Positions 50,963 through 64,000 of a DNA stretch of 64,000 nucleotides are shown here, one piece after another (position 1 is the first letter of the stretch; every line of letters begins with the position of its first letter). The notes under the pieces were generated by a model. That model made no database searches. It was given only the letters and a program-made list of their open reading frames with translations, and was not told the DNA's origin. Origin of the DNA: Nitrosopumilus sp. (lineage in GTDB: Archaea > Thermoproteota > Nitrososphaeria > Nitrososphaerales > Nitrosopumilaceae); NCBI GenBank assembly GCA_965207075.1, contig CBDBLO010000002.1, forward strand, positions 1,664,001 through 1,728,000. The letters are read 5' to 3'. The position numbers and the translations under genes were made by a program.

Positions 50963-51250
50963 ATGCGTGAGATCGGCAAGATACTGCACGTGGCAGGCAG
51001 CGGCAGGGTCATCATACAGATATCCGAACCGCTGCCCGAGGGCCAGATACTCTGCGACAAAGGCGGCACGCGCGTGGCAAGGGTGATGGAGCTTATCGGC
51101 CCCGTCAGCAGCCCGTTTGCCTCGGCAGCAGCCCTTACCAACAGCATCAAAAGACACGTCGGCAGGGCGGTCTTTGCGGGCCAAGAGCAGTACGAGAAGC
51201 GCGAGTCCCAGGCATTTGCGCAAAAGACTAGGAGAAGAAGAACAAGATGA
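50963..51250 (+). CDS. gar1: H/ACA RNP subunit Gar1
   Basis: IG..LH...SG, V.ELIGPV..P. Confidence 0.85.
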   Translation: MREIGKILHVAGSGRVIIQISEPLPEGQILCDKGGTRVARVMELIGPVSSPFASAAALTNSIKRHVGRAVFAGQEQYEKRESQAFAQKTRRRRTR

Positions 51251-52221
51251 AGATGCTAGGAGAAGAACAGCAAGTCTGCCGGGAATGCAGGTCCCCGCTA
51301 GTGGACGACATGCAGAACGGCGAGACCATCTGTACCGGATGCGGTATCGTAACAGACAGCCACATGGTAGACTATGGGCCGGAGAACGCCAATGCCGAGC
51401 ACGAGGAGAAGATCAGGCTCGCCAGGGCCTCCGGACTGAACACCTACGCCCAGCACGACCTGGGGGTGACCACTGCAATCGGCCCGTCGGCAAAGGACTT
51501 TAGCGGCAAGGCCATAGACAGGCGCATCGCAAGCCAGATGAACAACCTCAGAAACTGGCAGAAGCGGATCAGGGTCTCAAGCCCCCAGGAGAGGAGGCTT
51601 GTCGCGGCCCTGACGGTAATGGGATCCGCGGCCGAATGCCTCGGCCTCCCAAAGACCGTGCTGGAGACGGCGTCCATACTGTACAGGAACATCGACGGCC
51701 AGACCAACATCAAGGGCAAGTCAGTGGAGGCGATTGCATCTGCCATCCTTTACATGGCATGCAAGCAGTGCGGCGTCGTACGCTCCATTGACGAGATTGC
51801 GCGCGGCACGAGCCCCTCAAAGAAGCCCAAGACGAGACTGGCGGCAAAGTACTACCGCAACCTGGTGATGGGAGTTGGCCAGATAAACACGCCGACTGTC
51901 ACCACGGACAAGTACATCTCAAAGTTTGCAAACATGGCGCAGGTCGATACCAAGGTGGAGAGGCTTGCCCTCGACATGGCAGGCAAGACCAAGAACGCGT
52001 CCATAACGGACGGCAAGTCGCCAAGTGGGATAGCCGCAGCATACCTGTACATGGCGTCCATACTGCTCGGGTACGGGATCCCGCAGAGGGAGATATCAAC
52101 CGTGGCCGAGGTGACAGAGGTCACCATACGCAACCGCTGCAGAGAGATACTGACAAGCTACGAGCTCACAGTGGCCCTGCGCCCCACAAACACGGCGGCG
52201 CGCGCCATGCTGACCAGATGA
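51247..52221 (+). CDS. tfb: Transcription initiation factor IIB
   Basis: CREC..GETICTGCG zinc ribbon, D.GPE, two cyclin repeats, VTEVTIRNR. Confidence 0.96.
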   Translation: MKMLGEEQQVCRECRSPLVDDMQNGETICTGCGIVTDSHMVDYGPENANAEHEEKIRLARASGLNTYAQHDLGVTTAIGPSAKDFSGKAIDRRIASQMNNLRNWQKRIRVSSPQERRLVAALTVMGSAAECLGLPKTVLETASILYRNIDGQTNIKGKSVEAIASAILYMACKQCGVVRSIDEIARGTSPSKKPKTRLAAKYYRNLVMGVGQINTPTVTTDKYISKFANMAQVDTKVERLALDMAGKTKNASITDGKSPSGIAAAYLYMASILLGYGIPQREISTVAEVTEVTIRNRCREILTSYELTVALRPTNTAARAMLTR

Positions 52222-53317: not shown

Positions 53318-53626
53318 TTAGTCGGTGGGGTTGACCTTCATCTCGCCGTACTTGCCAGAAGATATCGATATCTCGCCCCGGAACTCCTTGGTATACCCGT
53401 TGATGATCTCGATAATGTCGCCCTCCTTGACCTTGGAGATGTCGTCACCCCAGAGCGTCAGCTTTATCTCGCCGGAGTCATCGGCAAGTATGTGGTCGCA
53501 CACGTCCTTTGGCTCGCCGGACCTTAGGGTCACCGTCCTTCGATCGCCCAGCCTCTTGACGGAAGTCTTGATGTTAATCCCGCCGCGCATCTTTTTGGCC
53601 TGCTCGACCGTTACGTAGTCTGTCAT
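53318..53626 (-). CDS. ssb: Single-stranded DNA-binding protein (single OB fold)
   Basis: D.SG.IKLTLW, NGYT.EFRG, GKYG. Confidence 0.9.
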   Translation of the reverse strand: MTDYVTVEQAKKMRGGINIKTSVKRLGDRRTVTLRSGEPKDVCDHILADDSGEIKLTLWGDDISKVKEGDIIEIINGYTKEFRGEISISSGKYGEMKVNPTD

Positions 53627-53729
53627 ACTGCCCCGTTTCATGCAAGTAATTATAAGCCTTTGTCGCAGGCGGGCACGGGCGGCAAGGCGGATCGAAATTG
53701 AGAAATAACGACTGTGCGGGCGCATAGTC

Positions 53730-53825
53730 GCAGAGATATCGAAGCCCGGTCAACCGAGAGGGACTCAAGATCCGTAAGTGATCCCTTCTCTTAGGAGTTC
53801 GTGGGTTCGAATCCCACTCTCTGCA
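53730..53825 (+). tRNA. tRNA-Leu(CAA) with 11-nt intron (about 53770-53780); probable integration target
   Basis: GCAGAGA/TCTCTGC acceptor stem, AGGGA-CTCAAG[ATCCGTAAGTG]A-TCCCT anticodon arm, long variable arm, GGTTCGAATCC T arm. Confidence 0.92.
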
Positions 53826-53875
53826 CTACAAATGATGCAGAAATACTTAATATCGGGGCGTATGTACCCATTGTA

Positions 53876-55051
53876 ATGCGCGGGCAGACGCTGCCGAGGG
53901 CGCTCGACGTAAAGTCAGAGTCCGTCCGGCAGTTCCTCAAAGGATTCAAAAGCGGGGAGACAAGGGTGGGGTATTCGCGCAAGCTGTGCCAGTTCCTGGA
54001 CGCGAGCGGTATTGCGCCCGACGACCTGCTGGCAGAGGCGCGCGGCAACCCCGTGAAAGTGCGGCGGCGCATCATCGATTTTGTGGAGGAGCGCAGGAAC
54101 AAGGTGTCCGGCTCGACGATAAACCAGACGGTCGTGGCGCTAAAGCATTTTTTTGAGATGAACGACGCGGAGGACGCGATATCGTGGAAGAAAATAACAA
54201 AGATAATGCCGCGCGTCCGCAAGACCGGGAGCGACCGCGCCCCCACCATACAGGAGATACGGCTCATGGTGGACGCGGCCGACGCGCGCACCAGGTGCAT
54301 CATCCTGGTGTGCGCAAGCTCCGGGATAAGGGTGGGCGCGTTTGACGGCATGCGGTGGGGGGACGTAACGCCGGTGCCCGCAGGGGAGGGCGGCGTCCGC
54401 GCGGCTCGCCTCCTGGTGTACAGGGACTCGGCAGAGGAGTATGTCACGTTTGTGAGCCCCGAGTGCCACGAGGCACTGCTCAGGTACAGGGCGATGCGCG
54501 AGGAGGCAGGCGAGAGGGTGACGGACGACTCGCCGCTCATACGGGATGCCTGGGACACCCACCCGTACCGCAAGGACCTGAGAAAGGATCCGGGTATCGC
54601 CACGCCCCTTGCCTCCAAGACCATATCAAACATGATGGGCAGGTTTCTCAGGACGCTCAACATGCGCAACAGGACGCGGGCGCGCGCAGCAGGGCACGAG
54701 TTCAAGCAGATCCACGGGTTCCGCAAGTACTTTAAGACGAACGCGGAGCGCACCATGAAGACCATCGACGTGGAAAAGCTGATGGGGCACGCCGAGAACT
54801 ATTACAAGCCGCCGGAGGAGTACCTGCTTGAACAGTATGCGGCGGCGGTGCCGAACCTGACCGTATCAGAGGAGGCCGAGCTCCGGGGCGCCATCGAGAG
54901 GCAGGCCGCGATGAGCGACAAAAAGGTGGGGGAGATCGAGCGGGAGAACGAGGACCTGCACGAGCGGCTTGCCAAACTTGAGAGCAGCTACGCGTCGGTG
55001 CGGGAGATCCTCGAGAACGTCCTGATCTCAAAGACCGGGGCCGGCCGCTAG
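53876..55051 (+). CDS. Tyrosine recombinase/integrase with C-terminal coiled coil
   Basis: SGIRVG (R), HGFRK (HxxR), LMGH, YY; CTTAATAT about 23-30 nt upstream. Confidence 0.93.
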   Translation: MRGQTLPRALDVKSESVRQFLKGFKSGETRVGYSRKLCQFLDASGIAPDDLLAEARGNPVKVRRRIIDFVEERRNKVSGSTINQTVVALKHFFEMNDAEDAISWKKITKIMPRVRKTGSDRAPTIQEIRLMVDAADARTRCIILVCASSGIRVGAFDGMRWGDVTPVPAGEGGVRAARLLVYRDSAEEYVTFVSPECHEALLRYRAMREEAGERVTDDSPLIRDAWDTHPYRKDLRKDPGIATPLASKTISNMMGRFLRTLNMRNRTRARAAGHEFKQIHGFRKYFKTNAERTMKTIDVEKLMGHAENYYKPPEEYLLEQYAAAVPNLTVSEEAELRGAIERQAAMSDKKVGEIERENEDLHERLAKLESSYASVREILENVLISKTGAGR

Positions 55052-55165
55052 GGGCCGGCGCGCGGCGCTCCTGCCTGCAGCCGGGGCCGGGGGCGCGCCG
55101 CCCGGCGAAACCGTGCGGGGACTGCCGCGCCCATCCGGCGTTATAAGCGGGCGCATGCGTACCGT

Positions 55166-55417
55166 GTGATGAAGCGCAGGGTTACGGTCTCGGTTTCCAG
55201 CGACGAGATCGCGCTGATCAGGTCCAAGCTGGCGTCGGTGGGGGTCCAGATCGCGGATCTCAGGGTGGCGCTGGGGGCCCAGCAGGCCCGCGTGCGGGAG
55301 GCGCTTCTGGGCCTCGGGGACGGGGGGCGTGACGGGGCGGGGGCGGCCCCCGACTGTGCGGGCGGAAGCGCCCGCCGGGACCGCGTGCCGCGGGGACGCG
55401 TGGGGTGTGCGGGTTGA
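55166..55417 (+). CDS. Small hypothetical protein, possibly a ribbon-helix-helix or coiled-coil regulator
   Basis: KRRVTVSVSSDEIALI strand-helix start; TTATAAG upstream; TTGA overlap with next gene. Confidence 0.55.
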   Translation: MMKRRVTVSVSSDEIALIRSKLASVGVQIADLRVALGAQQARVREALLGLGDGGRDGAGAAPDCAGGSARRDRVPRGRVGCAG

Positions 55418-56166
55418 CAGAGGCCTCCGAGGTGCTGATTTTCAGGGATTACTCGGGCTGGGAGGAGCCCGCGCTGACCACCCCGTTCGGGTTCATGTCG
55501 CTGCGCAACGTGGCGGTGCTGGGCGTCTTCGGCCTGGCGTCCGCCGCGCTCTACTGGGCTGCGGTGCCCGACAACGTGGAGATAGAGCGGGACTGGATGT
55601 CGGTGTGCGCGGCCCTCCTGCCGCTGGGGGCGGGCGCGGCGCTGGGAATCATAAAGACTCCGTACGGGACGGCGGACGTCGTGCTGCTTGCCGTGCTGTC
55701 GCTGCTCGCGGCCCGCCTCCGGGCAGGGGCGGGCGGCGGTGGCTGGGCGCAGAAGATGCGCAAGAGACGGGGCAAGGCAGACGCGCGCAAGAAATCCAGG
55801 GTGCTCGGGTTCCCGCGCCGGCTCGACGTCGACACCGCGCAAAAGGCCGACCGCATACGGGAGATACCGTGCGCCGACTTGGACGAGCTAAAGTCCATAC
55901 GCGTCACCATACATGGCGGCGGCGGAGCCGTGCTGGGCAACAGGCTCGTCCGGTGCTATCTGGATGACGAGCTGATAGACGCGCTGCGGACGTCTGCAGA
56001 GGGAGCGCTTGTGCTGCACGTCAGGCCCGAGCGCGAGGGTTCCAGGATCCTCACCATACGGGAGCGCGAGGGCGGCGCGGTCCTGCTGCGCAGGACGCTG
56101 CGGTTTGTGCGCCGCGGCGGCGGCGGCGGCGGCGGCGGCAGCAGCAGCAGCAGCAGCAGCAGGTGA
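55414..56166 (+). CDS. PrgI/VirB3-like membrane protein with C-terminal beta domain
   Basis: I.RD....EE.....FG.MSLRNV followed by 2-3 TM helices, resembling the PrgI layout. Confidence 0.6.
   Translation: MTEASEVLIFRDYSGWEEPALTTPFGFMSLRNVAVLGVFGLASAALYWAAVPDNVEIERDWMSVCAALLPLGAGAALGIIKTPYGTADVVLLAVLSLLAARLRAGAGGGGWAQKMRKRRGKADARKKSRVLGFPRRLDVDTAQKADRIREIPCADLDELKSIRVTIHGGGGAVLGNRLVRCYLDDELIDALRTSAEGALVLHVRPEREGSRILTIREREGGAVLLRRTLRFVRRGGGGGGGGSSSSSSSR
56115..56160. repeat. (GGC)8(AGC)7 microsatellite encoding a poly-Gly/poly-Ser tail
   Basis: Read directly. Confidence 0.9.
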
Positions 56167-56492
56167 TTGGGATGGGCATCTACCGCGTCAGGATCTACGG
56201 AAAGACCAAGGCCGAGCTGGAGATAGTCGCGAACGGAACGATCCTCTGCACCGCCGGCGGCGGCCCGACAAGCCACTTTGCGGTGCCCCTCCGGGATCTG
56301 GTATTTGCAGAGCAGGTATCGCACAATACTATACTGCTCAACTTTTTTCATAACGGCGACGCGGACTCGCTGGTGCAGGTCTCCGTGACCTCCGGGAACT
56401 GCTCCGCCATGATGGGCGAGATCACGTCTGCCGTGTCGTCACTGCCGTCACTGGCCGAGCCTAAAGACCCTGCCGCTCTCCGTGACGACTGA
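56163..56492 (+). CDS. Hypothetical protein, possibly PH-like fold
   Basis: GTGA overlap; run of beta-strand patterns and a terminal helix. Confidence 0.6.
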   Translation: MIGMGIYRVRIYGKTKAELEIVANGTILCTAGGGPTSHFAVPLRDLVFAEQVSHNTILLNFFHNGDADSLVQVSVTSGNCSAMMGEITSAVSSLPSLAEPKDPAALRDD

Positions 56493-56846
56493 GACCGTGC
56501 CGCCGTCAAGGGCCGATGTGATGCGGACCAGGCTGCCCACGCGCAGCTCGTCGACAGGCCCGTCCCTGTCCCGGACCGTGTACGCGCCGTCCCTGACGCC
56601 GTCCACGTACAGGTGCCTTATCCTGACGTCTCTTATGCCGGTGTTTATCAGGTCCGCCGTGGCCGGCTCGGTGTCCGTTATCTCCACCAGCGTAAGGCGC
56701 TCCGCGGCCTGCGCCTTGTACAGGTCGAGCCTGTCGCCGTACGACGTGATCCTGTCCCCGACGTCGTCAGTCGCGCCCTGGTACAGCGCCGCGAAAAAGA
56801 CGCCGACCACGCCGAATATCAGGACGTACTGCACCATCTGGTTCAC
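56448..56846 (-). CDS. Archaeal pilin-like protein (minor pilin or ArlF/G-like)
   Basis: N-terminal hydrophobic helix, ERL.LV, INTG, LYVDG, VVTESG..F; GTGA coupling. Confidence 0.72.
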   Translation of the reverse strand: MNQMVQYVLIFGVVGVFFAALYQGATDDVGDRITSYGDRLDLYKAQAAERLTLVEITDTEPATADLINTGIRDVRIRHLYVDGVRDGAYTVRDRDGPVDELRVGSLVRITSALDGGTVSVVTESGRVFRLGQ

Positions 56847-57262
56847 GGCGTGACCACCTCGCAGAGTGCGCTGCCCCCCACCCCGCCTCCCACGAGTCCC
56901 ACCACCCTCACGGGCAGCAGGCCGGACTCCTCCACGCCAGTCGTTACGAACTCCAGCACCGCGGTCTGTCCCGGCTCCCACACCGCGCGGGACGACGCGG
57001 CGGGCGCGTCGCCGGCGCCCGCCGTGACGCGGTACTCCAGCATCGGGTGGTCTCCCGTGTTCCGCACCGTCGCCTGGGCCCAGTACGTGTTGTCGGATAT
57101 CTCGTGCATCTCCACCCACGCGGCGCACTCGGCCCCCTGCAGTACGTCGTGCGCGCCGGAAAACCACGCCGCGAGTGCGCCGGCGCCCACTACCGCCACC
57201 GAGACCAGCACCAGGACCTCGATCATCCCAGACACCGCGTGCCGCCGCTTGCGCCGCGTCAC
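56843..57262 (-). CDS. Archaeal type IV pilin-like protein with class III signal peptide
   Basis: RRKRRHA|VSGMIEVLVLVSVAVVG.., then VRNTG and EPGQT. Confidence 0.82.
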   Translation of the reverse strand: MTRRKRRHAVSGMIEVLVLVSVAVVGAGALAAWFSGAHDVLQGAECAAWVEMHEISDNTYWAQATVRNTGDHPMLEYRVTAGAGDAPAASSRAVWEPGQTAVLEFVTTGVEESGLLPVRVVGLVGGGVGGSALCEVVTP

Positions 57263-59121
57263 CCCCGCACCGCCTTTGTGTTAAAGTACCGCCTTGCCTC
57301 GTCGGCCGTCGCCTCGAACCTGAGGTATACCGCGTTGTCGCTTGTCTGGAGCAGCCCCATCCCGGACCGGAAGTTAGTGACCCGCTCGATCTCCCGCTCG
57401 GTGAGCCCCAGGGCCGCGCCCATTGTACGCGCGGCCGACTGCGGCATCTGCATTATCACCTTGGTGTCGAACAGCTCGGTGAGCCTGGACTCGTCGTCTA
57501 GCGCGCGGTCCATGTCGGAGAACTGCTGCGTGGAGACCGCGAATATCAGCGAGCGCTTGCGGCCCTGCCGCGCCATCTCGCCTATCTTGCGTATGCTGTG
57601 CCCGAGCTTTGTCATGCGCCACGCCTCGTCAAGCAGGACGAACTTCCACTGTTTTGCCGGCAGCTCGTTTACGCGCCTCCACGCGTACGCCAGGACAAGC
57701 AGGATCAGCAGCCCCTCGTACTCCTGCCCGTCCGTGTTCCTCAGCGATATTACCATTTTGTCCGAGAACCTAGGGGCTCCCCTGAAGACGCTGGAGACCC
57801 CGCCGCGGACGAGGTCTGCCAGGTACCCCCTCGAGGCCTCGGAGCTTGCCTCGTACAGCCCTCCTACCGAGCGCACCGCATCGCAGACGCTCCTCCACTC
57901 CCTTCTGGTCTGGTTGGGCGCGTTGGTGGCGGCCCCCAGCAGGTCGGCCGCCTCGACCGGGGAGCCGAGCACGGCAAACGGGTCCAGCCCGTACTCGTAC
58001 CCGGGGCTCACCTCTACCCTGTCAAGCCCAAAGTACTCGGCGTGCTCGGCGTACTCGCCCTGCGGGTCTATCACTATGCACATGGTGTCCGGGCGCTTTT
58101 CAAGAAAGCGCTTGAGCAGCACCTTGTTCGTAAACGACTTGCCCGATCCGGTGGTCCCCGCCGTGAACACGTTGTGGTTCTTTCGGAGGTTGACGTCGTA
58201 TATGACGGGGCCCTGCGTGTCGAGGTTGCGGCCCAGCACGACGCCGTTTGGAACCTCGAGCATGTCGGATGACACGAACGGGTAGAGCACATGCATGCTG
58301 TGTATGGCGCCCAGCCACGACGCGCCCCCGCCCTGCACGATGTGGCGCTGCCTGCCAAGCGACGTCGTGACGCGGACGTTCATCGCCGACGTGTTGCGCT
58401 TGACTGCACGGTGCAGCCCGCGGAGTTCACGCCTGGATGCGGCGAACACGAACCCGTTGACTGTGAACGAGAACGCCGACGTGTTGCCGAGCTCGAGCTC
58501 CCGCTTGAGGGCGCGTATGTCCCGCAGCTTCTTCTGGACGTCGGCCCTGCTTGTGCGCACCCCGCTGTAGAGCAGCTCGCGGTTCTCCATCTTGCGGAGG
58601 GCGTCGTCGGGGCGGACCGGCGCCACGCGTATCTGGAGCCGGTGGAACGTGCCGAACACGTCGTGCACCCACGCCGGCGGCAGCGCGGCGGGGGCCCCGT
58701 ACACGGTGTACGCCCTCCCGTACAGGGGCGAGCCGTCCATTACACACGCAAAGTCCCGGGCCCACTGCTCCGTGACCTCTGGCGCGCCGCGGGGCTCGTC
58801 TATCGTATACGAGAATCCCAGCCTCTCAAGCACGTCATCTAGGGGGTCTGCCGCGTCGAGCATGACCCGCAGCACGTCCATCCTGCTGCTGCCGCCGCCG
58901 CCGTCCCCCCGGCCGCCGTCCCCCCCGACGCATATGGGCACGCGCTCAAGGGTGATGACGGCCGGATGCTCAAGCATCCTGAGCAGCTCAAAGAACTCTG
59001 CGAGCCTGCGCCGCCGCTTCTCCTCCGGCAGTATGCGGAAGTTTGCCGGGGTTATCGAGTATGCGTGCCCGTATGTGCGCCGGGGCGGCCCGCCGAAGAG
59101 GCGCTCGCGTATGATCTCCAC
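57259..59121 (-). CDS. VirB4-like ATPase (HerA/FtsK superfamily); start 59121 (GTG) or up to 59322
   Basis: N.NVFTAGTTGSGKS, VIDPQGEY, VLLDEAW, RQGRK, STQQ.SD, G.GLL; CTTAAAAG about 21-28 nt before 59121. Confidence 0.88.
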   Translation of the reverse strand: MEIIRERLFGGPPRRTYGHAYSITPANFRILPEEKRRRRLAEFFELLRMLEHPAVITLERVPICVGGDGGRGDGGGGSSRMDVLRVMLDAADPLDDVLERLGFSYTIDEPRGAPEVTEQWARDFACVMDGSPLYGRAYTVYGAPAALPPAWVHDVFGTFHRLQIRVAPVRPDDALRKMENRELLYSGVRTSRADVQKKLRDIRALKRELELGNTSAFSFTVNGFVFAASRRELRGLHRAVKRNTSAMNVRVTTSLGRQRHIVQGGGASWLGAIHSMHVLYPFVSSDMLEVPNGVVLGRNLDTQGPVIYDVNLRKNHNVFTAGTTGSGKSFTNKVLLKRFLEKRPDTMCIVIDPQGEYAEHAEYFGLDRVEVSPGYEYGLDPFAVLGSPVEAADLLGAATNAPNQTRREWRSVCDAVRSVGGLYEASSEASRGYLADLVRGGVSSVFRGAPRFSDKMVISLRNTDGQEYEGLLILLVLAYAWRRVNELPAKQWKFVLLDEAWRMTKLGHSIRKIGEMARQGRKRSLIFAVSTQQFSDMDRALDDESRLTELFDTKVIMQMPQSAARTMGAALGLTEREIERVTNFRSGMGLLQTSDNAVYLRFEATADEARRYFNTKAVRG

Positions 59122-59347
59122 GCGTATGGTGCGCCGTGCGGCTTTTAAGCGGGTGCGCAAGAGCGGGGGGGGAGAGGGCTGCCAAGAACCGGCAACCCGG
59201 GACGTCCGGCCCCTCCTGCCGCGCCCGGTGCGGTAGCGGGATCCCCGGCGCGCGGCCGCAGCCTCCCTTTGTACGCCCCGGCTCAGGAGTGCGGGCCCGT
59301 CCCGCGCCGCGATCGCGGACACTTGCCGCCGGCGCGGCCGCGCCCGG

Positions 59348-62300
59348 CTAGGAGACGGTCACGGACGTCACCTTCTCGGCAAACTTGCCCGCGCTGTCCG
59401 TGCACCGGTAGCTGAAGTAGTAGGTGCCGGCCTTGCTCGTGTCCAGATCGTCAAACCAGTATATGGTTATGTCGGTTATGGCGCCGTCCTCGGCGTCGTG
59501 GCACGTCGCCGGCGGGGGCGTGAAGCTGCCCCCGACCCTGACGGGCGGTATGTCCGGTATGCTCAGGACCGGCTTTAGGTTCTCGTCGGCCGTCACGTAC
59601 ACGGTCCTGACGTTGTCGCCGCTGTTCCAGTTGCCCGAGCTGTCCTCGCACCAGTACGTTATCGTGTACTTGCCCGCCGTGCCGGTGTCCACCGGGTTGC
59701 GGCTGGAGTAGACGGTGGCGGGCTTTGGCGGGTCGACGTCGTCCACGCACGTCGCGCCCGGGTCGCTCCACGCGCTTCCCAGCTTTACCGTCGTCGGCGA
59801 GGCGCCGTTGAGCACGACCCTCGGCGGGGAGGTGTCGGTGACGGACGCCACCGCCCTGGATATGGCGGAGCGGTTGCCGTCGCTGTCGGTGCAAGAGTAC
59901 GTTATGGTGGCGCCCGTCTGGCCGCGCGTTATGCTGGTGGTGACGAGGTGCGAGATGTCGCCGTCCTGCGGGTCGACGCATCGCGCGTCAGAGGAATAGT
60001 CCGGGTCTCCCTGCGAGGGGACCGACGAGCGGAGGTGGAGCAGGTACAGGTTGGGGTTCGTGTCGGGGTCGCGGGGCGGCGCGGAGACCCTTATGGTGAC
60101 GGTGTCGGTGTCGGTGCGTGACGAGGAGTCGGTTACCGTGAGGGTGAAGGCCAGGGTCGCGGGGCCCGCGGGCGCCGTGAATGTGGGGGATTCCGCGGTG
60201 GCGCTTGAGAGCGAGACCGCGGGGCCCGAGTCCTGGGCCCACGAGTGGGATATGGACGCGCCGGTGGAGCGGGAGCCGTCAAGCGTGACGGTGGCGCCCG
60301 AGGAGACCGTACGGTCCCGCCCCGCGTCTGCGACGGGCGCCTCTGCGGCCCTGACGGTTATGGTGACAGAGTCCGTCGACTGGCGCGACTCGGGGTCCTC
60401 CACCGTGAGCGTGAAGACCAGGGTCGCGGGGCCCGCGGGCGCGGTAAACGCGGGGGATGCCGCGGTGTCGCTTGAGAGCGCGACCGCGGGGCCCGAGTCC
60501 TGCTCCCAGAGGTAGTCAAGCGAGGTGCCAGTCGAGGCCGAGCCGTCGAGCGTGACGGTGGCGCCCGACCCGACCGTGCGGTCCGGCCCCGCGTCTGCGA
60601 CCGGCACGTTTGGCGCGGATACCGTGACTGTCACGGTGTCAGTAGAGGACTGGGACGCCGTGTCCGTTACGGTAAGGGTGAAGACCAGGGTTGCGGGGCC
60701 CGCCGGCGCGGTAAACGTGGGGGATTCCGCAGTTGTATTTGAGAGCGTCACGGAGGTGCCCGAGTCCTGGGCCCACGAGTAGGTTATGGAATCGTTGTCC
60801 TCCGAGTCAGAGCCGTCGAGCGTGACCGTCGTACCTGGTGTGACCGTCTGGTCGTCCCCGGCGTCTGCCACCGGCGGGGTGTCCGTCGCAAGCCGGAGTA
60901 TCTGGACGCCGTCGTCGTCAGATGACGCCACCGCGGCGTACGTGCTGCCGCCCGTCTGGAAGGTGGTGATGGCGCGGGGGCCGTTAAGCTCGAGGGAGCC
61001 GCCGTCCGTTATCTGGTCGGCGGCGGTGACGTTGTGCGGGTCCGAGATATCGAGTATCTGGACGCCGTCGTCGTCAAATGAGGCCACCGCGGCGTAGATG
61101 CTGCCGCCTGCCTGGAAGGTGGTGATGCCGCTGGCGCTTTCAAGCTCGAGGGTGGCGTCGTCCGTTATCTGGTCGGTGGCAGAGATGTCTGAGGGGTCCG
61201 AGACGTCGAGTATCTGGACGCCGTCGTCTGCAAATGACGCCACCGCGGCGTAGATGCTGCCGCCTGCCTGGAAGGTGGTGATGCCGGTGGCGCCGGCAAG
61301 CTCGAGGGTGGCGTCGTCAGTTATCTGGTCGGTGGCCGAGATGTCGTGCGGGTCTGAGACGTCGAGTATCTGGACGCCGTGGTCTGCAGATGACGCCACC
61401 GCGGCGTAGGTCTTGCCGCCCGCATGGAAGGTGGCGATGGCGCGGGCGCCGTCAAGCTCGAGCGAGCCGCCGTCCGTTATCTGGTCGGTGGCCGAGATGT
61501 CTGAGGGGTCCGAGACGTCGAGTATCTGGACGCCGTCGTCGAAAAATGACGCCACCGCGGCGTAGGTCCTGCCGTCTACCTGGAAGGTGGTAATGCCACG
61601 GGCGTCTTCAAGCTCGAGGGTGGCGTCGTCAGTTATCTGGTCGGTGGCCGAGATGTCTGAGGGGTCCGAGACGTCGAGTATCTGGACGCCGCCGTCGTCA
61701 AATGAGGCCACCGCGGCGTACGTGCCGCCGCCCGCATGGAAGGTGGCGACATCGCGGGCGCCGTCAAGCTCGAGCGAGCCGCCGTCCGTTATCTGGTCGG
61801 TGGCCGAGATGTCTGAGGGGTCCGAGACGTCGAGTATCTGGACGCCGTTGTCGAAAGCTGACGCCACCGCGGCGTAGATGCTGCCGTTGACCTGGAAGGT
61901 GGCGACGCCAAAGGCGCCGCTAAGCTCGAGGGAGCCGCCGTCCGTTATGCCGTCCCTGGCCTCCAGGGCGAGCACGGGGCTGCCGACCGTTATCGTGACG
62001 GTGTCGGTGCCCGTCTGCATTTCCGTGTCGGTTGCAGTAAGCGCAAAGGTGAGCGTGTGGGTCCCGGCGGGCGCCGCAAACGCGGGGGACGCGGCAGTCG
62101 TGTTTGAGAGCGTCACGGAGGCGCCGAACGTCTGGGCCCACGAGTAAGATATGCCGGCGCCAGCGGAGCCGGTGCCGTCAAGCGTGACTGTTGCGCCGGG
62201 CGATACCGTCTGGTCGTCCCCGGCGTCGACCACCAGTGCCAGCGTGATCGGGTAGACGGAGGCCAGGTCGTACTCGTTTACGTCGACTCCGGAAGCGCCC

Positions 62301-64000
62301 ACCACGAACATCTTGGCGCCGTCGCCTGAGAACGCCACGCCGGTTGGAAGAGTCTCCTGCGCCGAGACGTCAAAGGAGTCCACGAATGAGGCCGTGGATA
62401 CGTCAAACGGGGCGGTCAGGCCGTACTCGTTTACGTCGTCGCCGGAAGATCCCATCACGAACATCTTGGCGCCGTCGCCTGAGAACGCCACGCCGTTTGG
62501 GAGAGTATCCTGCGCCGAGACGTTAAAGGAGTCCACGAATGAGGCCGTGGAGACGTCAAACGGGGCGGCCAGGCCGTACTCGTTTACGCTGTCTCCGATA
62601 GTGCCCACCACGAACATCTTGGCGCCGTCGCCTGAGAACGCCACGCCGTTTGGGAAATCCTCCTGCGCCGAGACGTCAAAGGAGTCCACGAATGAGGCCG
62701 TGGAGACGTCAAACGGGGCGGTCAGGCCGTACTCGTTTACGTCGTCGCCGGAAGCGCCCACCACGAACATCTTGGCGCCGTCGCCTGAGAACGCCACGCC
62801 GTTTGGGAGAGTCTCCTGCGCCGAGACGTCAAAGGAGTCCACGAATGAGGCCGTGGAGACGTCAAACGGGGCGGTCAGGCCGTACTCGTTTACGCTGTCT
62901 CCGTTAGTGCCCACCACGAACATCTTGGCGCCGTCGCCTGAGAACGCCACGCCTTGCGGGGAACCCTCCTGCGCCGAGACGGAGAAGGAGTCCACGAATG
63001 AGGCCGTGGAGACGTCAAACGTGCCGACTATTGTATTGCCGGCCGCGTCCTGCACCGCCCCGGGCTCGATCGTCAGTTCCGGTGTAGTGAACCCCTGAAC
63101 CGCCGCCAGGTGCTGCGCCGTCAGGGTGAACGTGATGGTGGCAGAGTCTGCCGCGGTGTCAAGCTCGGCGGCAGTCAGTGTGACGCCGTGCGTGTAGTTG
63201 CCCGACTCCCTCACGTGTATCTTGGCCGCCTCGACCATCGAGACGGGCGTGACGTCTACTGCCTCCGAAAAGGTGATGCTCAGCTTCCCCGTCGCGGTGT
63301 TGAGCTCGGACGAGACGAACGTCGGCGGCGGGTCGACTGCTGCAAGCTGGAGTATCTGGACGCCGCTGTCGTCAGATGACGCGACCGCGGCGTACGTGCC
63401 GCCGCCCGTCTGGAAGGTGGCGATGCCGGTGGCGCCCTCAAGCTCGAGGGTGGCGTCGTCCGTTATCTGGTCGGTGGCAGAGATGTTGTGCGGGTCTGAG
63501 ACGTCGAGTATCTGGACGCCGTCGTCGTCAGATGACGCCACCGCGGCGTACGTGCTGCCGCCCGCCTGGAAGGTGGTGATGCCGGTGGCGTCTTCAAGCT
63601 CGAGGGTGGCATCGTCCGTTATCTGGTCGGTGGCAGAGATGTCTGAGGGGTCCGAGACGTCGAGTATCTGGACGCCGTTGTCGGCAGATGACGCCACCGC
63701 GGCGTAGGTCTTGCCGCCCGCCTGGAAGGTGGTGATGCCGGTGGCGCCGTTAAGCTCGAGGGTGGCGTCGTCCGTTATCTGGTCGGTGGCGGTGACGTTG
63801 CCCGGGTCCGAGACGTCGAGTATCTGGACGCCGTTGTCGAAAGCTGACGCCACCGCGGCGTAGATGCTGCCGCCTGCCTGGAAGGTGGCGATGGCGCGGG
63901 GGCCGTCAAGCGCGAGGGAGCCGCCGTCCGTTATCTGGTCGGTGGCAGTGACGTTGTGCGGGTCTGAGACGTCGAGTATCTGGACGCCGTCGTCGTCAAA
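59348..64000 (-). CDS. Giant repetitive surface protein/adhesin, 5' end outside the window (more than 1550 aa)
   Basis: Frame is open to the window edge; LVIVD-like propeller repeats, a second propeller repeat, four PKD-like and three DUF5011-like Ig domains. Confidence 0.9.
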   Translation of the reverse strand, partial: FDDDGVQILDVSDPHNVTATDQITDGGSLALDGPRAIATFQAGGSIYAAVASAFDNGVQILDVSDPGNVTATDQITDDATLELNGATGITTFQAGGKTYAAVASSADNGVQILDVSDPSDISATDQITDDATLELEDATGITTFQAGGSTYAAVASSDDDGVQILDVSDPHNISATDQITDDATLELEGATGIATFQTGGGTYAAVASSDDSGVQILQLAAVDPPPTFVSSELNTATGKLSITFSEAVDVTPVSMVEAAKIHVRESGNYTHGVTLTAAELDTAADSATITFTLTAQHLAAVQGFTTPELTIEPGAVQDAAGNTIVGTFDVSTASFVDSFSVSAQEGSPQGVAFSGDGAKMFVVGTNGDSVNEYGLTAPFDVSTASFVDSFDVSAQETLPNGVAFSGDGAKMFVVGASGDDVNEYGLTAPFDVSTASFVDSFDVSAQEDFPNGVAFSGDGAKMFVVGTIGDSVNEYGLAAPFDVSTASFVDSFNVSAQDTLPNGVAFSGDGAKMFVMGSSGDDVNEYGLTAPFDVSTASFVDSFDVSAQETLPTGVAFSGDGAKMFVVGASGVDVNEYDLASVYPITLALVVDAGDDQTVSPGATVTLDGTGSAGAGISYSWAQTFGASVTLSNTTAASPAFAAPAGTHTLTFALTATDTEMQTGTDTVTITVGSPVLALEARDGITDGGSLELSGAFGVATFQVNGSIYAAVASAFDNGVQILDVSDPSDISATDQITDGGSLELDGARDVATFHAGGGTYAAVASFDDGGVQILDVSDPSDISATDQITDDATLELEDARGITTFQVDGRTYAAVASFFDDGVQILDVSDPSDISATDQITDGGSLELDGARAIATFHAGGKTYAAVASSADHGVQILDVSDPHDISATDQITDDATLELAGATGITTFQAGGSIYAAVASFADDGVQILDVSDPSDISATDQITDDATLELESASGITTFQAGGSIYAAVASFDDDGVQILDISDPHNVTAADQITDGGSLELNGPRAITTFQTGGSTYAAVASSDDDGVQILRLATDTPPVADAGDDQTVTPGTTVTLDGSDSEDNDSITYSWAQDSGTSVTLSNTTAESPTFTAPAGPATLVFTLTVTDTASQSSTDTVTVTVSAPNVPVADAGPDRTVGSGATVTLDGSASTGTSLDYLWEQDSGPAVALSSDTAASPAFTAPAGPATLVFTLTVEDPESRQSTDSVTITVRAAEAPVADAGRDRTVSSGATVTLDGSRSTGASISHSWAQDSGPAVSLSSATAESPTFTAPAGPATLAFTLTVTDSSSRTDTDTVTIRVSAPPRDPDTNPNLYLLHLRSSVPSQGDPDYSSDARCVDPQDGDISHLVTTSITRGQTGATITYSCTDSDGNRSAISRAVASVTDTSPPRVVLNGASPTTVKLGSAWSDPGATCVDDVDPPKPATVYSSRNPVDTGTAGKYTITYWCEDSSGNWNSGDNVRTVYVTADENLKPVLSIPDIPPVRVGGSFTPPPATCHDAEDGAITDITIYWFDDLDTSKAGTYYFSYRCTDSAGKFAEKVTSVTVS
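60035..60880 (-). repeat. Three tandem PKD/K319L-like domains
   Basis: PVADAG.D.TV..G.TVTLDGS...W.QDSG..V.LS......P.FTAPAGPATL.FTLTV. Confidence 0.85.
60895..61955 (-). repeat. Seven tandem 156-bp (52-aa) LVIVD-like repeats
   Basis: GVQIL occurs seven times at 156-bp spacing; near-identical DNA. Confidence 0.93.
62265..63022 (-). repeat. Five tandem 153-bp (51-aa) beta-propeller repeats
   Basis: FDVSTASFVDSF.VSAQ...P.GVAFSGDGAKMFV.G..G..VNEY repeated five times. Confidence 0.93.
63345..64000 (-). repeat. 156-bp LVIVD-like repeats (five GVQIL cores seen), truncated by the window edge
   Basis: Same unit as 60895-61955. Confidence 0.92.

What the first reader, a model, noticed from the sequence alone, without database searches (positions are those of the whole stretch)
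53790..64000. tRNA-Leu-integrated element combining a minimal conjugation-type core, type IV pilins and a giant variable adhesin
Seen: tRNA, integrase with intact R/HxxR/H/Y residues, a rightward coupled unit (small protein, PrgI-like, PH-like), a leftward coupled unit (VirB4-like, two pilins), then a co-oriented giant repeat protein. No relaxase, VirD4, VirB6, PilB/PilC or capsid gene is visible, though the element is truncated. Known: tRNA-targeting integrated elements, including VirB4-encoding ICEs, are described in Thaumarchaeota. Inference: a mobile cell-contact, DNA-transfer or adhesin-export system, possibly involved in host colonisation, with an architecture I do not recognise from characterised systems.
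Basis: partly seen in the sequence, partly recalled or inferred. Interest (0 to 1): 0.82.

Follow-up and report, generated by a model that had tools for sequence, protein, structure and literature searches.

The report
Conjugative element in ammonia-oxidising archaeon
The flagged stretch is the left end of a 66-kb mobile DNA element, of a kind already described in ammonia-oxidising archaea, that sits in a tRNA gene and carries DNA-transfer, pilus, defence and adhesin genes.

Summary
tRNA-Leu(CAA) at 53730-53826 is followed by an intact tyrosine recombinase, a conserved pair (3-TM protein, PH-fold protein), two pilin-like genes, a VirB4-like ATPase and a 1720-aa repeat protein.

The "minimal core" is an artefact of the window's end. 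The last 15 nt of the tRNA recur 66.4 kb downstream (C2:1784181-1784195). Three same-genus genomes have the tRNA joined directly to the right flank, so their site is empty.

The rest of the 66,384-bp element holds a VirD4/TraG-like ATPase, a two-helix VirB2-like candidate, a FlaI-like ATPase, a TadC/UpsF-like platform, a prepilin-peptidase-like protein, an actin-like protein and a Dnd/Mrr/SNF2 defence block. This is the gene set of the putative integrative-conjugative elements already described in Thaumarchaeota (Krupovic 2019; Abby 2018).

The giant adhesin is not part of the machinery. It fills a variable cargo slot and is missing from that slot in 7 of 7 related elements.

Noteworthy points: the genome carries three full copies of this gene set; the element has no TFIIB; the integrase module is swapped. 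Transfer itself is inferred, not shown.

Verdict: new member of a known kind, moderate interest.

The parts
53730..53826 (+). tRNA-Leu(CAA), the integration target
   Evidence: ARAGORN. 88-90% identical tRNA in three same-genus genomes.
53812..53826 (.). attL: 15-nt core (3' end of the tRNA) repeated exactly at C2:1784181-1784195 (attR, 66.4 kb downstream, outside the window)
   Evidence: Exact repeat. Alignment A1 of attL, attR and three empty attB sites. A tRNA-Ser element with a 68%-identical integrase has a 16-nt repeat in the same register.
53801..55051 (+). Tyrosine recombinase (integrase); probable start at the ATG at 53876
   Evidence: R..HxxR..H..Y conserved. XerA E=8e-10; Pfam Phage_integrase below its cut-off. 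78% nt identity to the integrase beside tRNA-Ser at C2:584 kb.
55166..55417 (+). 83-aa ORF belonging to the integrase module (candidate excision or regulatory factor; function inferred)
   Evidence: Conserved downstream of the 68%-identical integrase at C2:583 kb. The homology switch to the conjugation backbone falls at 55372/55374.
55405..56166 (+). 3-TM protein with an Ig-like C-terminal domain (VirB3/PrgI-like is a lead only)
   Evidence: Model pLDDT 71.7: helices 30-50, 57-79, 86-105 plus a beta-sandwich. Foldseek hits are CARDB/intimin Ig domains. Atlas gives PrgI clusters at 0.84. Pfam PrgI matches only 2 of 25 homologues, E>=0.2. Present in 14 of 301 genomes of the family, own genome included.
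56163..56492 (+). 109-aa PH-fold protein, always paired with the 3-TM protein
   Evidence: Model pLDDT 83 (other four models 57-67): seven strands plus a C-terminal helix. All Foldseek rows shown are PH/PTB/FERM-F3 domains, TMq 0.53-0.72, E 1e-3 to 2e-2. Adjacent to the 3-TM gene in all 8 related loci with both genes, and in el2 and el3.
56448..56846 (-). Second pilin-like protein (132 aa from the GTG overlapping the stop of the first pilin gene); short N-terminus, hydrophobic helix, beta-rich domain
   Evidence: Frame and start conserved in 8 of 8 loci read. One TM helix. No family hit.
56843..57262 (-). Type IV pilin-like protein (139 aa): basic leader, conserved R-x-A-[VAI]-S-G-[MLFY]-[IL]-E motif, hydrophobic helix, two invariant Cys
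   Evidence: Alignment A4 of 17. Pfam Pilin_N in 5 of 17 homologues, best E=0.001, none for the window protein itself. UpsA E=0.006.
57259..59322 (-). VirB4-like ATPase (687-aa ORF; homologues align from about residue 38-58)
   Evidence: DUF87 42.6 bits and AAA_10 33.3 bits, both above their cut-offs. VirB4-like CD1110 family E=2e-20; VirB4_CagE, TraC, CedB weaker, all below the curated cut-offs. Walker A GTTGSGKS and DEAW read in the sequence.
59348..64000 (-). Giant secreted repeat protein ('adhesin'). It runs on to window-equivalent 64510 (1720 aa). Cargo, not machinery.
   Evidence: 4 K319L-like PKD, LVIVD/EPTP-type and SGL-type propeller repeats, Ig-like domains. Tandem DNA repeats of 153-267 nt. 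Signal-like N-terminus. No full-length orthologue: best non-self hit is 41% identical over 44%. Absent from this slot in 7 of 7 related elements.

Best explanation
The finding is the left arm of a 66,384-bp integrative-conjugative element (ICE) of the type already described in Thaumarchaeota. It is inserted into the 3' end of tRNA-Leu(CAA) of an ammonia-oxidising archaeon of the Nitrosopumilaceae.

Shown:
- The element is bounded by an exact 15-nt direct repeat that rebuilds the tRNA end.
- Related genomes have the uninterrupted site.
- The element encodes an intact tyrosine recombinase; VirB4-like and VirD4/TraG-like ATPases; a FlaI-class ATPase; a TadC/UpsF-class membrane platform; a prepilin-peptidase-like protein; at least three pilin-like proteins; a two-helix VirB2-like candidate; an actin-like protein; and a 19-kb low-GC cargo block (Mrr, DndBCDE+IscS, SNF2 helicase).

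Inferred:
- The recombinase excises the element by recombination between the 15-nt cores.
- The type IV pilus set makes a filament that brings cells together.
- VirB4, the coupling ATPase and membrane partners (the 3-TM protein, a 474-aa polytopic protein) move the DNA into a recipient, where it reintegrates at tRNA-Leu.
- The 1720-aa repeat protein is a cargo gene in a variable slot upstream of VirB4. It most likely alters surface adhesion of the carrier cell (cell-cell or cell-host) and is not a core machine part.
- The integrase, the small ORF and the attR-proximal arm form a module exchanged with small tRNA-Ser elements of the same genome.
For: Borders:
- The 15-nt repeat lies at 53812-53826 and C2:1784181-1784195. 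Chance expectation is 0.002, and 2 of 300 shuffles gave a hit.
- attB alignment: the tRNA runs straight into the right flank in G002, G021 and G009.
- Flank synteny without an insert holds in 4 of 4 relatives compared (G002, G021, G018, G009).
- The flanking 260-aa gene and hemB are 4.7-9.4 kb apart in the 14 relatives whose coordinates I compared, against 68.4 kb here.
- hemB and other conserved genes start right after attR.
- A paralogous integrase at tRNA-Ser has a 16-nt repeat in the same register. Its far end is 79% identical to the attR-proximal arm.

Gene content.

Host: AmoA at 387 bits.

Accessory nature:
- VirB4 homologue in 11 of 41 relatives, own genome included.
- 3-TM protein in 14 of 301 genomes of the family (one of them, G285, is unpublished).
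- Close copies (85-90% VirB4 identity) occur in four other Nitrosopumilaceae/Thaumarchaeota MAGs, with the same local gene order in 7 loci.
- A 4963-nt contig from another study bridges the tRNA and the integrase at about 97.5% identity.

Known class: ICE median 64 kb, with VirB4+VirD4, TadC, FlaI, prepilin peptidase and pilins (PMC6563490, passages). ICEs of 65.5 and 43.6 kb sit in tRNA genes with 21- and 24-bp repeats (PMC5797428, passages).
Against: - No transfer, excision or circular form was seen. The public runs are contigs only, and no joint or loose end at the att core was among the rows shown.
- No relaxase or recognisable replication gene was found. This is also true of the published archaeal elements.
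- No VirB6 or VirB3 family hit. The 474-aa and 253-aa candidates rest on topology and weak leads.
- The VirB2-like call rests on two TM helices and PF18895 at E=0.007, below its cut-off.
- There is no TFIIB gene inside the element, although all published thaumarchaeal ICEs are said to have one. The only ParB_N protein lies in the cargo block.
- Every NCBIfam equivalog score (VirB4, VirD4, FlaI, UpsF) is far below its curated cut-off.
- Conjugation has not, to my knowledge, been demonstrated in any thaumarchaeon (recalled).
Confidence: 0.8

Rival explanations
1. It is a site-specifically integrated genomic island whose VirB4/VirD4/pilus genes do not transfer the island. They instead serve the cell, for example DNA import as in the crenarchaeal Ced/Ted systems working with Ups-type pili, or pilus-mediated adhesion or protein export in a host-associated lifestyle.
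For: - Weak CedB and CedD matches of the VirB4-like protein (E=6e-6 and 4e-4) and UpsA/UpsF matches of the pilin and platform proteins.
- Ced/Ted are described as domesticated T4SS with VirB4, VirB6 and VirB2 homologues that work with type IV Ups pili (PMC9905601, passages).
- Three full gene sets coexist in one 2.2-Mb genome. That is unusual if each were an autonomous, mutually excluding ICE.
- No relaxase was recognised.
Against: - The genes lie inside an att-bounded insert with its own intact integrase, and the insert is absent from relatives.
- A VirD4/TraG-type coupling ATPase is present. The passages read name only VirB4, VirB6 and VirB2 homologues for Ced/Ted.
- Distribution is patchy: 11 of 41 and 14 of 301 genomes.
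- CedB scores 25 bits against a cut-off of 700.
Confidence: 0.13
2. It is a provirus or virus-like element whose structural genes are too divergent to recognise. The ATPases would serve packaging, and the pilin-like and adhesin proteins would serve virion or host-recognition functions.
For: Several large conserved ORFs (1079, 1118, 538, 487 and 417 aa) have no family match in Pfam or NCBIfam. tRNA integration by a tyrosine recombinase is also typical of proviruses.
Against: - There is no capsid, portal, terminase or tail match among the roughly 50 ORFs scanned.
- The ATPases match VirB4, VirD4 and FlaI families rather than terminases.
- A complete pilus-assembly set is present.
Confidence: 0.03
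3. It is an ordinary chromosomal pilus/adhesin locus that merely lies next to a tRNA, and the 15-nt repeat is a coincidence.
For: The repeat is short (15 nt), and 2 of 300 shuffles gave such a match.
Against: - Empty sites in relatives have the tRNA joined to the same right flank at matching spacing.
- A paralogous, collinear copy sits elsewhere in the genome.
- The gene set is absent from most relatives.
Confidence: 0.01

Closest known systems
Putative integrative-conjugative elements of Thaumarchaeota: NCAV2-E1/E2 (= ICE-1/ICE-2 of Ca. Nitrosocaldus cavascurensis), NitIsl-E3, NitEve-E6 and others (Krupovic et al. 2019, PMC6563490; Abby et al. 2018, PMC5797428; passages read)
   Same: - Thaumarchaeal host.
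- Integration into a tRNA gene with short direct repeats.
- Size: 66.4 kb against a median of 64 kb.
- VirB4 plus VirD4/TraG ATPases, TadC-like, FlaI-like, prepilin peptidase, pilins and a VirB2-like candidate.
- No relaxase.
- Variable cargo including defence genes.
   Different: - No TFIIB gene inside the element.
- The ParB_N protein occurs only in the cargo block.
- An actin-like (ParM/MreB-type) gene sits near the right end.
- The att core is 15 nt, against 21 and 24 bp.
- A conserved 3-TM plus PH-fold gene pair lies next to the pilin-VirB4 operon.
- A 1720-aa adhesin and a Dnd system are carried as cargo.
- Three related copies occur in one genome.

I could not see the papers' supplementary tables and annotation files, which may list closer relatives.
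Conjugative plasmids of Sulfolobales (pNOB8/pING type), as summarised in PMC6563490 and PMC9905601
   Same: The VirB4/TrbE and VirD4/TraG pair is the recognisable core. There is no canonical relaxase.
   Different: Those are plasmids of hyperthermophilic Crenarchaeota. The passages read mention no type IV pilus assembly set for them. There is no detectable close sequence relationship here.
Ced/Ted DNA-import systems with Ups pili of Crenarchaeota (PMC9905601)
   Same: A combination of VirB4-like ATPase, VirB6-like and VirB2-like membrane proteins with a separate type IV (Ups) pilus for cell contact. The window proteins give weak CedB, UpsA and UpsF matches.
   Different: Ced/Ted are chromosomal, domesticated and import DNA. 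This locus is on an att-bounded mobile insert with an integrase and a coupling ATPase. All scores are far below the family cut-offs.
Monoderm (Gram-positive type) conjugation systems, e.g. the CD1110/CD1115 families, and pCF10 with PrgI, PrgJ and the adhesin PrgB (pCF10 details recalled, not from a call)
   Same: The best NCBIfam matches of the two ATPases are the VirB4-like CD1110 and VirD4-like CD1115 families. There is a PrgI-like lead for the 3-TM protein. A large surface adhesin is encoded in the transfer operon.
   Different: The host is an archaeon. A type IV pilus set is present. PrgI membership is not established (2 of 25 homologues, E>=0.2). The adhesin is not conserved in the element family.

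Membership tests
Thaumarchaeal ICE (Krupovic 2019 / Abby 2018) | Integrated in the host chromosome, often in a tRNA gene, and flanked by direct repeats (att) | tested here: met
   15-nt exact repeat at the tRNA-Leu 3' end and 66.4 kb downstream. Empty site in 3 relatives.
Thaumarchaeal ICE (Krupovic 2019 / Abby 2018) | [quoted passage not shown] | tested here: met
   VirB4-like at window 57259-59322. VirD4/TraG-like 653 aa at C2:1778175-1780136: TrwB_AAD_bind 26.9 bits against a cut-off of 20.5; CD1115 family E=5e-7.
Thaumarchaeal ICE (Krupovic 2019 / Abby 2018) | TadC, FlaI/PilT-class ATPase, prepilin peptidase and pilins | tested here: met
   T2SSF/UpsF-like 630 aa. T2SSE/FlaI-like 532 aa. 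Peptidase_A24-like 230 aa (E=0.004, nearly full profile; both Asp motifs read in the sequence). Three pilin-like ORFs.
Thaumarchaeal ICE (Krupovic 2019 / Abby 2018) | VirB6 and VirB3 homologues | tested here: inconclusive
   Candidates by topology only: a 474-aa protein with at least 4 TM helices and the 253-aa 3-TM protein. No Pfam or NCBIfam hit. PrgI lead at 0.84, but only 2 of 25 homologues at E>=0.2.
Thaumarchaeal ICE (Krupovic 2019 / Abby 2018) | TFIIB homologue, usually upstream of ParB, said to be present in all identified ICEs | tested here: not met
   PF00382 finds 4 TFIIB genes in the genome and none inside the element. The nearest (C2:1715592-1716149) lies in the conserved left flank. 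ParB_N occurs only in the low-GC cargo block.
Thaumarchaeal ICE (Krupovic 2019 / Abby 2018) | Actual excision and intercellular transfer | not testable with these tools
   Only contigs of public runs were available, and no junction was seen in the rows shown.
Tyrosine recombinase | Catalytic R, HxxR, H/W and Y | tested here: met
   All four are present and conserved in the alignment with 7 paralogues. The Pfam score is below its cut-off: 22.1 against 27.1.
VirB4 family T4SS ATPase | P-loop ATPase domain with VirB4-type C-terminal region, scoring over the family cut-off | tested here: inconclusive
   Pfam DUF87 and AAA_10 are over their cut-offs. VirB4-specific NCBIfam models match parts only, at 38-72 bits against cut-offs of 325-643. 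Walker A and DEAW are present.
Archaeal type IV pilin (Pilin_N, PF07790) | Class III signal peptide followed by a hydrophobic N-terminal helix; family HMM match | tested here: inconclusive
   The motif and helix are conserved in the 14 of 17 homologues that retain the N-terminus. Pilin_N matches 5 of 17 homologues (best E=0.001) but not the window protein itself. The second pilin-like ORF has no basic leader.
PrgI / VirB3-like | Family HMM match or structural match to VirB3/PrgI | tested here: inconclusive
   Atlas feature score 0.84 to two PrgI clusters. Pfam PrgI in 2 of 25 homologues, E>=0.2. Foldseek returns only Ig-like matches to the C-terminal domain.
PH-like fold | Seven-stranded beta-sandwich capped by a C-terminal helix | tested here: met
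   Model with E3-8, 12-18, 23-28, 34-39, 43-50, 53-60, 63-74 and H77-89, pLDDT 83. All listed Foldseek rows are PH/PTB/FERM-F3 domains, TMq up to 0.72. This is a match of fold only, with no sequence family.
Ced/Ted DNA-import system | CedB/TedB, CedA/TedA and CedA1/TedC orthologues in a chromosomal, non-mobile locus | tested here: not met
   CedB scores 25.2 bits against a cut-off of 700. The locus lies on an att-bounded insert.

The most novel reading that the evidence does not exclude
The element is a transmissible 'colonisation and defence' island of host-associated ammonia-oxidising archaea. Its cargo slot next to the pilin-VirB4 operon captures members of the symbionts' huge mosaic adhesin family. 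Conjugation would then spread new surface-adhesion specificities (mating-aggregate or animal-host attachment) together with Dnd phosphorothioation defence among symbiont lineages. The three coexisting related copies would recombine with each other and with small tRNA-Ser elements to generate new combinations.
Probability: 0.15. Interest if true: 0.7.

Novelty: new member of a known kind. Interest (0 to 1): 0.4.

Why it matters
Putative ICEs are the largest class of mobile elements in Thaumarchaeota, but they are known from few genomes and none has been shown to transfer.

This one is unusually well delimited. It has exact att cores, empty sites in relatives and a near-complete host chromosome. 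It comes from a high-GC Nitrosopumilaceae lineage whose close relatives turn up in sponge, coral and marine metagenome runs.

It shows three things:
- Dnd phosphorothioation genes, reported as more prevalent in sponge-associated Thaumarchaeota (PMC7848895, passage), can ride on an ICE.
- A giant mosaic adhesin can be captured into the transfer operon.
- Three related elements, about 11% of the genome, can coexist.

It also defines a conserved, unannotated gene pair (3-TM/Ig-like protein plus PH-fold protein) next to the pilin-VirB4 operon, which is a candidate machine part. None of this changes the known picture of archaeal conjugation; it adds a clean example.

Tried and rejected
- Excision or circular forms. 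I found runs with the attL stretch and laid four of them. All are Logan contigs. Contigs of X19 and X23 stop at 53808, just before the att core. X1 has one contig bridging 50487-55479. No joint or loose end at 53812-53826 is among the rows shown (127 loose-end rows were not shown). This gives no evidence for or against excision. In X3 the flank contigs have depths of about 134-162 and the integrase contig 23.7, but contig depths cannot be compared.
- Lack of cover over the adhesin in X1 is no finding.
- Habitat labels of runs that I did not lay are not evidence.
- ARAGORN found no tRNA in the four relatives' loci. blastn then found the tRNA-Leu in three. G018 gave no blastn hit, although its flank synteny is the same.
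- PrgI membership is not established. Foldseek of the 3-TM model matched only its Ig-like domain.
- Pfam and NCBIfam gave nothing for the 1079-, 1118-, 538-, 487-, 417-, 321- and 281-aa ORFs. PADLOC gave nothing for four ORFs of the cargo block.
- Literature. Searches found no paper describing ICEs in sponge-associated ammonia oxidisers. PMC7848895 has 0 occurrences of 'conjugati', 'type IV', 'integrase' or 'pili'. Supplements of PMC6563490 and PMC5797428 were not available and may list related elements.
- I made no complex-prediction job, because the report claims no specific protein-protein contact.

Full report
**What is in the window.**
- ARAGORN finds tRNA-Leu(CAA) at 53730-53826.
- Directly downstream is a 416-aa ORF (53801-55051). 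Its GTG start overlaps the tRNA, and the first ATG is at 53876. It carries the tyrosine-recombinase residues R, HxxR, H and Y, all conserved when aligned with seven paralogues from the same genome. Family scores are weak: XerA E=8e-10; Pfam Phage_integrase 22.1 bits against a cut-off of 27.1.
- Three overlapping rightward ORFs follow: 83 aa; 253 aa with three TM helices; 109 aa.
- Three overlapping leftward ORFs follow: a 687-aa VirB4-like ATPase, a 139-aa ORF and a 132-aa ORF, the last two each with an N-terminal hydrophobic helix.
- Upstream of VirB4 on the same strand, 25 nt away, lies a repeat protein that runs off the window.

**The element as a whole.**
- The window is C2:1664001-1728000 of a 2.23-Mb, two-contig, 60% GC genome that encodes archaeal AmoA.
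- The last 15 nt of the tRNA recur exactly, on the same strand, at C2:1784181-1784195. The expected number of such matches in 100 kb is 0.002, and 2 of 300 shuffles gave one.
- Everything between the repeats looks mobile; everything after is housekeeping (hemB and others).
- In four of four same-genus genomes compared (G002, G021, G018, G009), the genes left of the tRNA and right of the second repeat are neighbours with no insert.
- In three of them the tRNA-Leu, 88-90% identical, runs straight into the same right-flank sequence at matching spacing.
- In the 14 relatives whose coordinates I compared, the flanking 260-aa gene and hemB lie 4.7-9.4 kb apart, against 68.4 kb here.
- The element is 66,384 bp. 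GC is 64.6% in the left arm, 47.0% in a 19.4-kb central block and 62.1% in the right arm.

**Gene content outside the window.**
- Peptidase_A24-like 230-aa protein.
- T2SSF/UpsF-like 630-aa platform.
- FlaI/T2SSE-like 532-aa ATPase.
- A further UpsA-like pilin candidate.
- A 474-aa polytopic membrane protein.
- Central cargo block: Mrr type IV restriction enzyme, DndB, DndC, DndD, DndE and IscS, an SNF2 helicase and a ParB_N protein.
- HNH and MazE-domain proteins.
- A 653-aa VirD4/TraG-like ATPase (TrwB_AAD_bind over its cut-off; CD1115 family E=5e-7).
- An actin-like protein.
- At the right end, a 143-aa membrane protein and a 97-aa protein with two hydrophobic helices and a weak T4SS_pilin match (E=0.007).
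- No capsid, terminase, relaxase or TFIIB was found. The genome's four TFIIB genes all lie outside the element.

**Comparison with the literature.**
- Krupovic et al. 2019 (passages) describe putative thaumarchaeal ICEs. Their median size is 64 kb. [quoted passage not shown] They have no relaxase, and all have TFIIB, usually next to ParB.
- Abby et al. 2018 (passages) describe two such elements of 65.5 and 43.6 kb in tRNA genes with 21- and 24-bp repeats.
- The present element fits this class in all respects tested except TFIIB. VirB6 and VirB3 remain inconclusive.

**The adhesin.**
- The full gene (C2:1723348-1728510) encodes 1720 aa. It has a signal-like N-terminus, LVIVD/EPTP-type and SGL-type propeller repeats, four K319L-like PKD domains and Ig-like domains. 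Its DNA holds tandem repeats of 153-267 nt.
- It has no full-length orthologue among 5.8 billion clusters. The best non-self hit is 41% identical over 44% of the protein. 516 proteins share subsets of its modules.
- A paralogous, collinear element in the same genome (C2: about 708.7-760.6 kb, inverted, 77-91% nt identity) lacks it. There the VirB4-to-prepilin-peptidase interval is 1.2 kb instead of 6.3 kb.
- In 7 of 7 related elements in which this interval could be read (el2, L020, L021, L022, L025, L026, L027), it is 0.6-2.3 kb, 45-54% GC, and holds unrelated small ORFs or none.
- The adhesin, with about 1 kb of upstream non-coding DNA that resembles other places in the chromosome, is therefore cargo in a variable slot and not a conserved machine part.

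**The conserved small genes.**
- The 253-aa protein has 56 relatives (43-88% identical to the window protein, plus the window protein itself), none with a name or a Pfam domain.
- Its model has three TM helices and a confident Ig-like C-terminal domain.
- The PrgI (VirB3-like) idea gets a language-model lead (0.84) but fails as a family test: 2 of 25 homologues, E>=0.2.
- The 109-aa protein has 47 close relatives. Its best model (pLDDT 83) has the seven-strand-plus-helix PH topology. Every Foldseek row shown is a PH, PTB or FERM-F3 domain, with modest E-values.
- The 139-aa protein belongs to a small family of 20 representative clusters. Members have a basic leader of variable length, a conserved R-x-A-[VAI]-S-G-[MLFY]-[IL]-E motif, a hydrophobic helix and two invariant cysteines. 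Pilin_N is the only Pfam family shared by more than one member (5 of 17).
- The local order (3-TM, PH-fold | pilin, pilin, VirB4) recurs in seven loci of four other MAGs labelled Thaumarchaeota, Nitrosopumilus or Nitrosopumilaceae.

**Modularity and copies.**
- The integrase, the 83-aa ORF (53799-55372) and a stretch 170-325 bp inside attR resemble, at 78-79% nt identity, the two ends of small elements at tRNA-Ser(GCT). Those elements are flanked by a 16-nt repeat in the same tRNA register.
- From 55374 onward the backbone matches the second large element. Related elements elsewhere carry a different integrase, about 27% identical.
- The genome holds three full sets of the conjugation genes: this one; 708.7-760.6 kb; and a dispersed, more divergent set at 1146-1272 kb. 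It also holds two partial TraG/417-aa/actin copies.
- The distribution is patchy. VirB4 homologues occur in 11 of 41 relatives. The 3-TM protein occurs in 14 of 301 genomes of the family, in 5 of 27 genera (which includes the unpublished G285).

**Mechanism.**
- Shown: site-specific insertion at the tRNA, an intact recombinase and a complete-looking set of transfer and pilus genes.
- Inferred: excision at the 15-nt cores; pilus-mediated contact; VirB4/VirD4-driven DNA transfer; reintegration.
- The adhesin probably changes the surface adhesion of carrier cells.
- No read-level evidence of excision could be obtained.

**Verdict.** This is a real, well-delimited new member of the known class of thaumarchaeal ICEs. 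Its cargo and modularity are interesting, but it is not a new kind of system.

Noticed in passing
G000:C2:~708,700-760,600 (outside the window): A second, inverted, collinear copy of the element (77-91% nt identity). It lacks the adhesin and the Dnd block and has a different integrase (about 27% identical) at the opposite end. A third, more divergent and dispersed gene set lies at C2:1,146,000-1,272,400. Two inverted partial copies (TraG, 417-aa and actin-like genes) lie at 1,918,800-1,945,400. Together these make up roughly 11% of the genome.
   Followed up: partly
G000:C2:573,030-584,301 (outside the window): tRNA-Ser(GCT) is followed by an integrase 68% identical to the window's. A 16-nt repeat of the tRNA end occurs at two downstream sites (577,176 and 573,030). 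This suggests two small elements in tandem that share the integrase/att module with the large element.
   Followed up: partly
window 53318-53826 plus about 8.3 kb right of attR (C2:1784196-1792500): The segment holding the 135-aa OB-fold gene, tRNA-Leu (with the element) and the 8.3-kb right-flank block is inverted relative to all four relatives compared. The tRNA/right-flank junction is conserved.
   Followed up: partly
window 51247-52221: A TFIIB paralogue (one of four in the genome) lies 1.5 kb upstream of the integration site in the conserved flank, while the element itself has none.
   Followed up: partly
window 53730-53826; L013:11058-11157, L014:802-902, L016:10988-11091: The tRNA-Leu is 97 nt here and 100-104 nt in relatives, against 88 nt for the other Leu tRNAs. 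The variable stretch lies just 3' of the anticodon, and ARAGORN missed the relatives' copies. A short intron is possible.
   Followed up: no
G000:C2:1751551-1769471 (window-equivalent 87551-105471): A low-GC (47%) defence block inside the element: Mrr type IV restriction enzyme, DndB-C-D-E plus IscS, a metallo-beta-lactamase-fold protein, a ParB_N protein and an SNF2 helicase (DrmD/BrxH-like). No recognised DndFGH or Pbe restriction partner was identified.
   Followed up: partly
G000:C2:712,737-713,009: A 60-nt-period tandem array inside the second element, which ARAGORN reports as four overlapping 'tRNA-???' genes. Probably a repeat, not tRNAs.
   Followed up: no
G021:C1:1,459,000-1,483,000 (L033-L035): A 34% GC relative carries a more distant cluster: VirB4 36%, TraG 55%, 417-aa protein 41%, 474-aa membrane protein 30% identical. 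This points to a wider family of such elements in the genus.
   Followed up: partly
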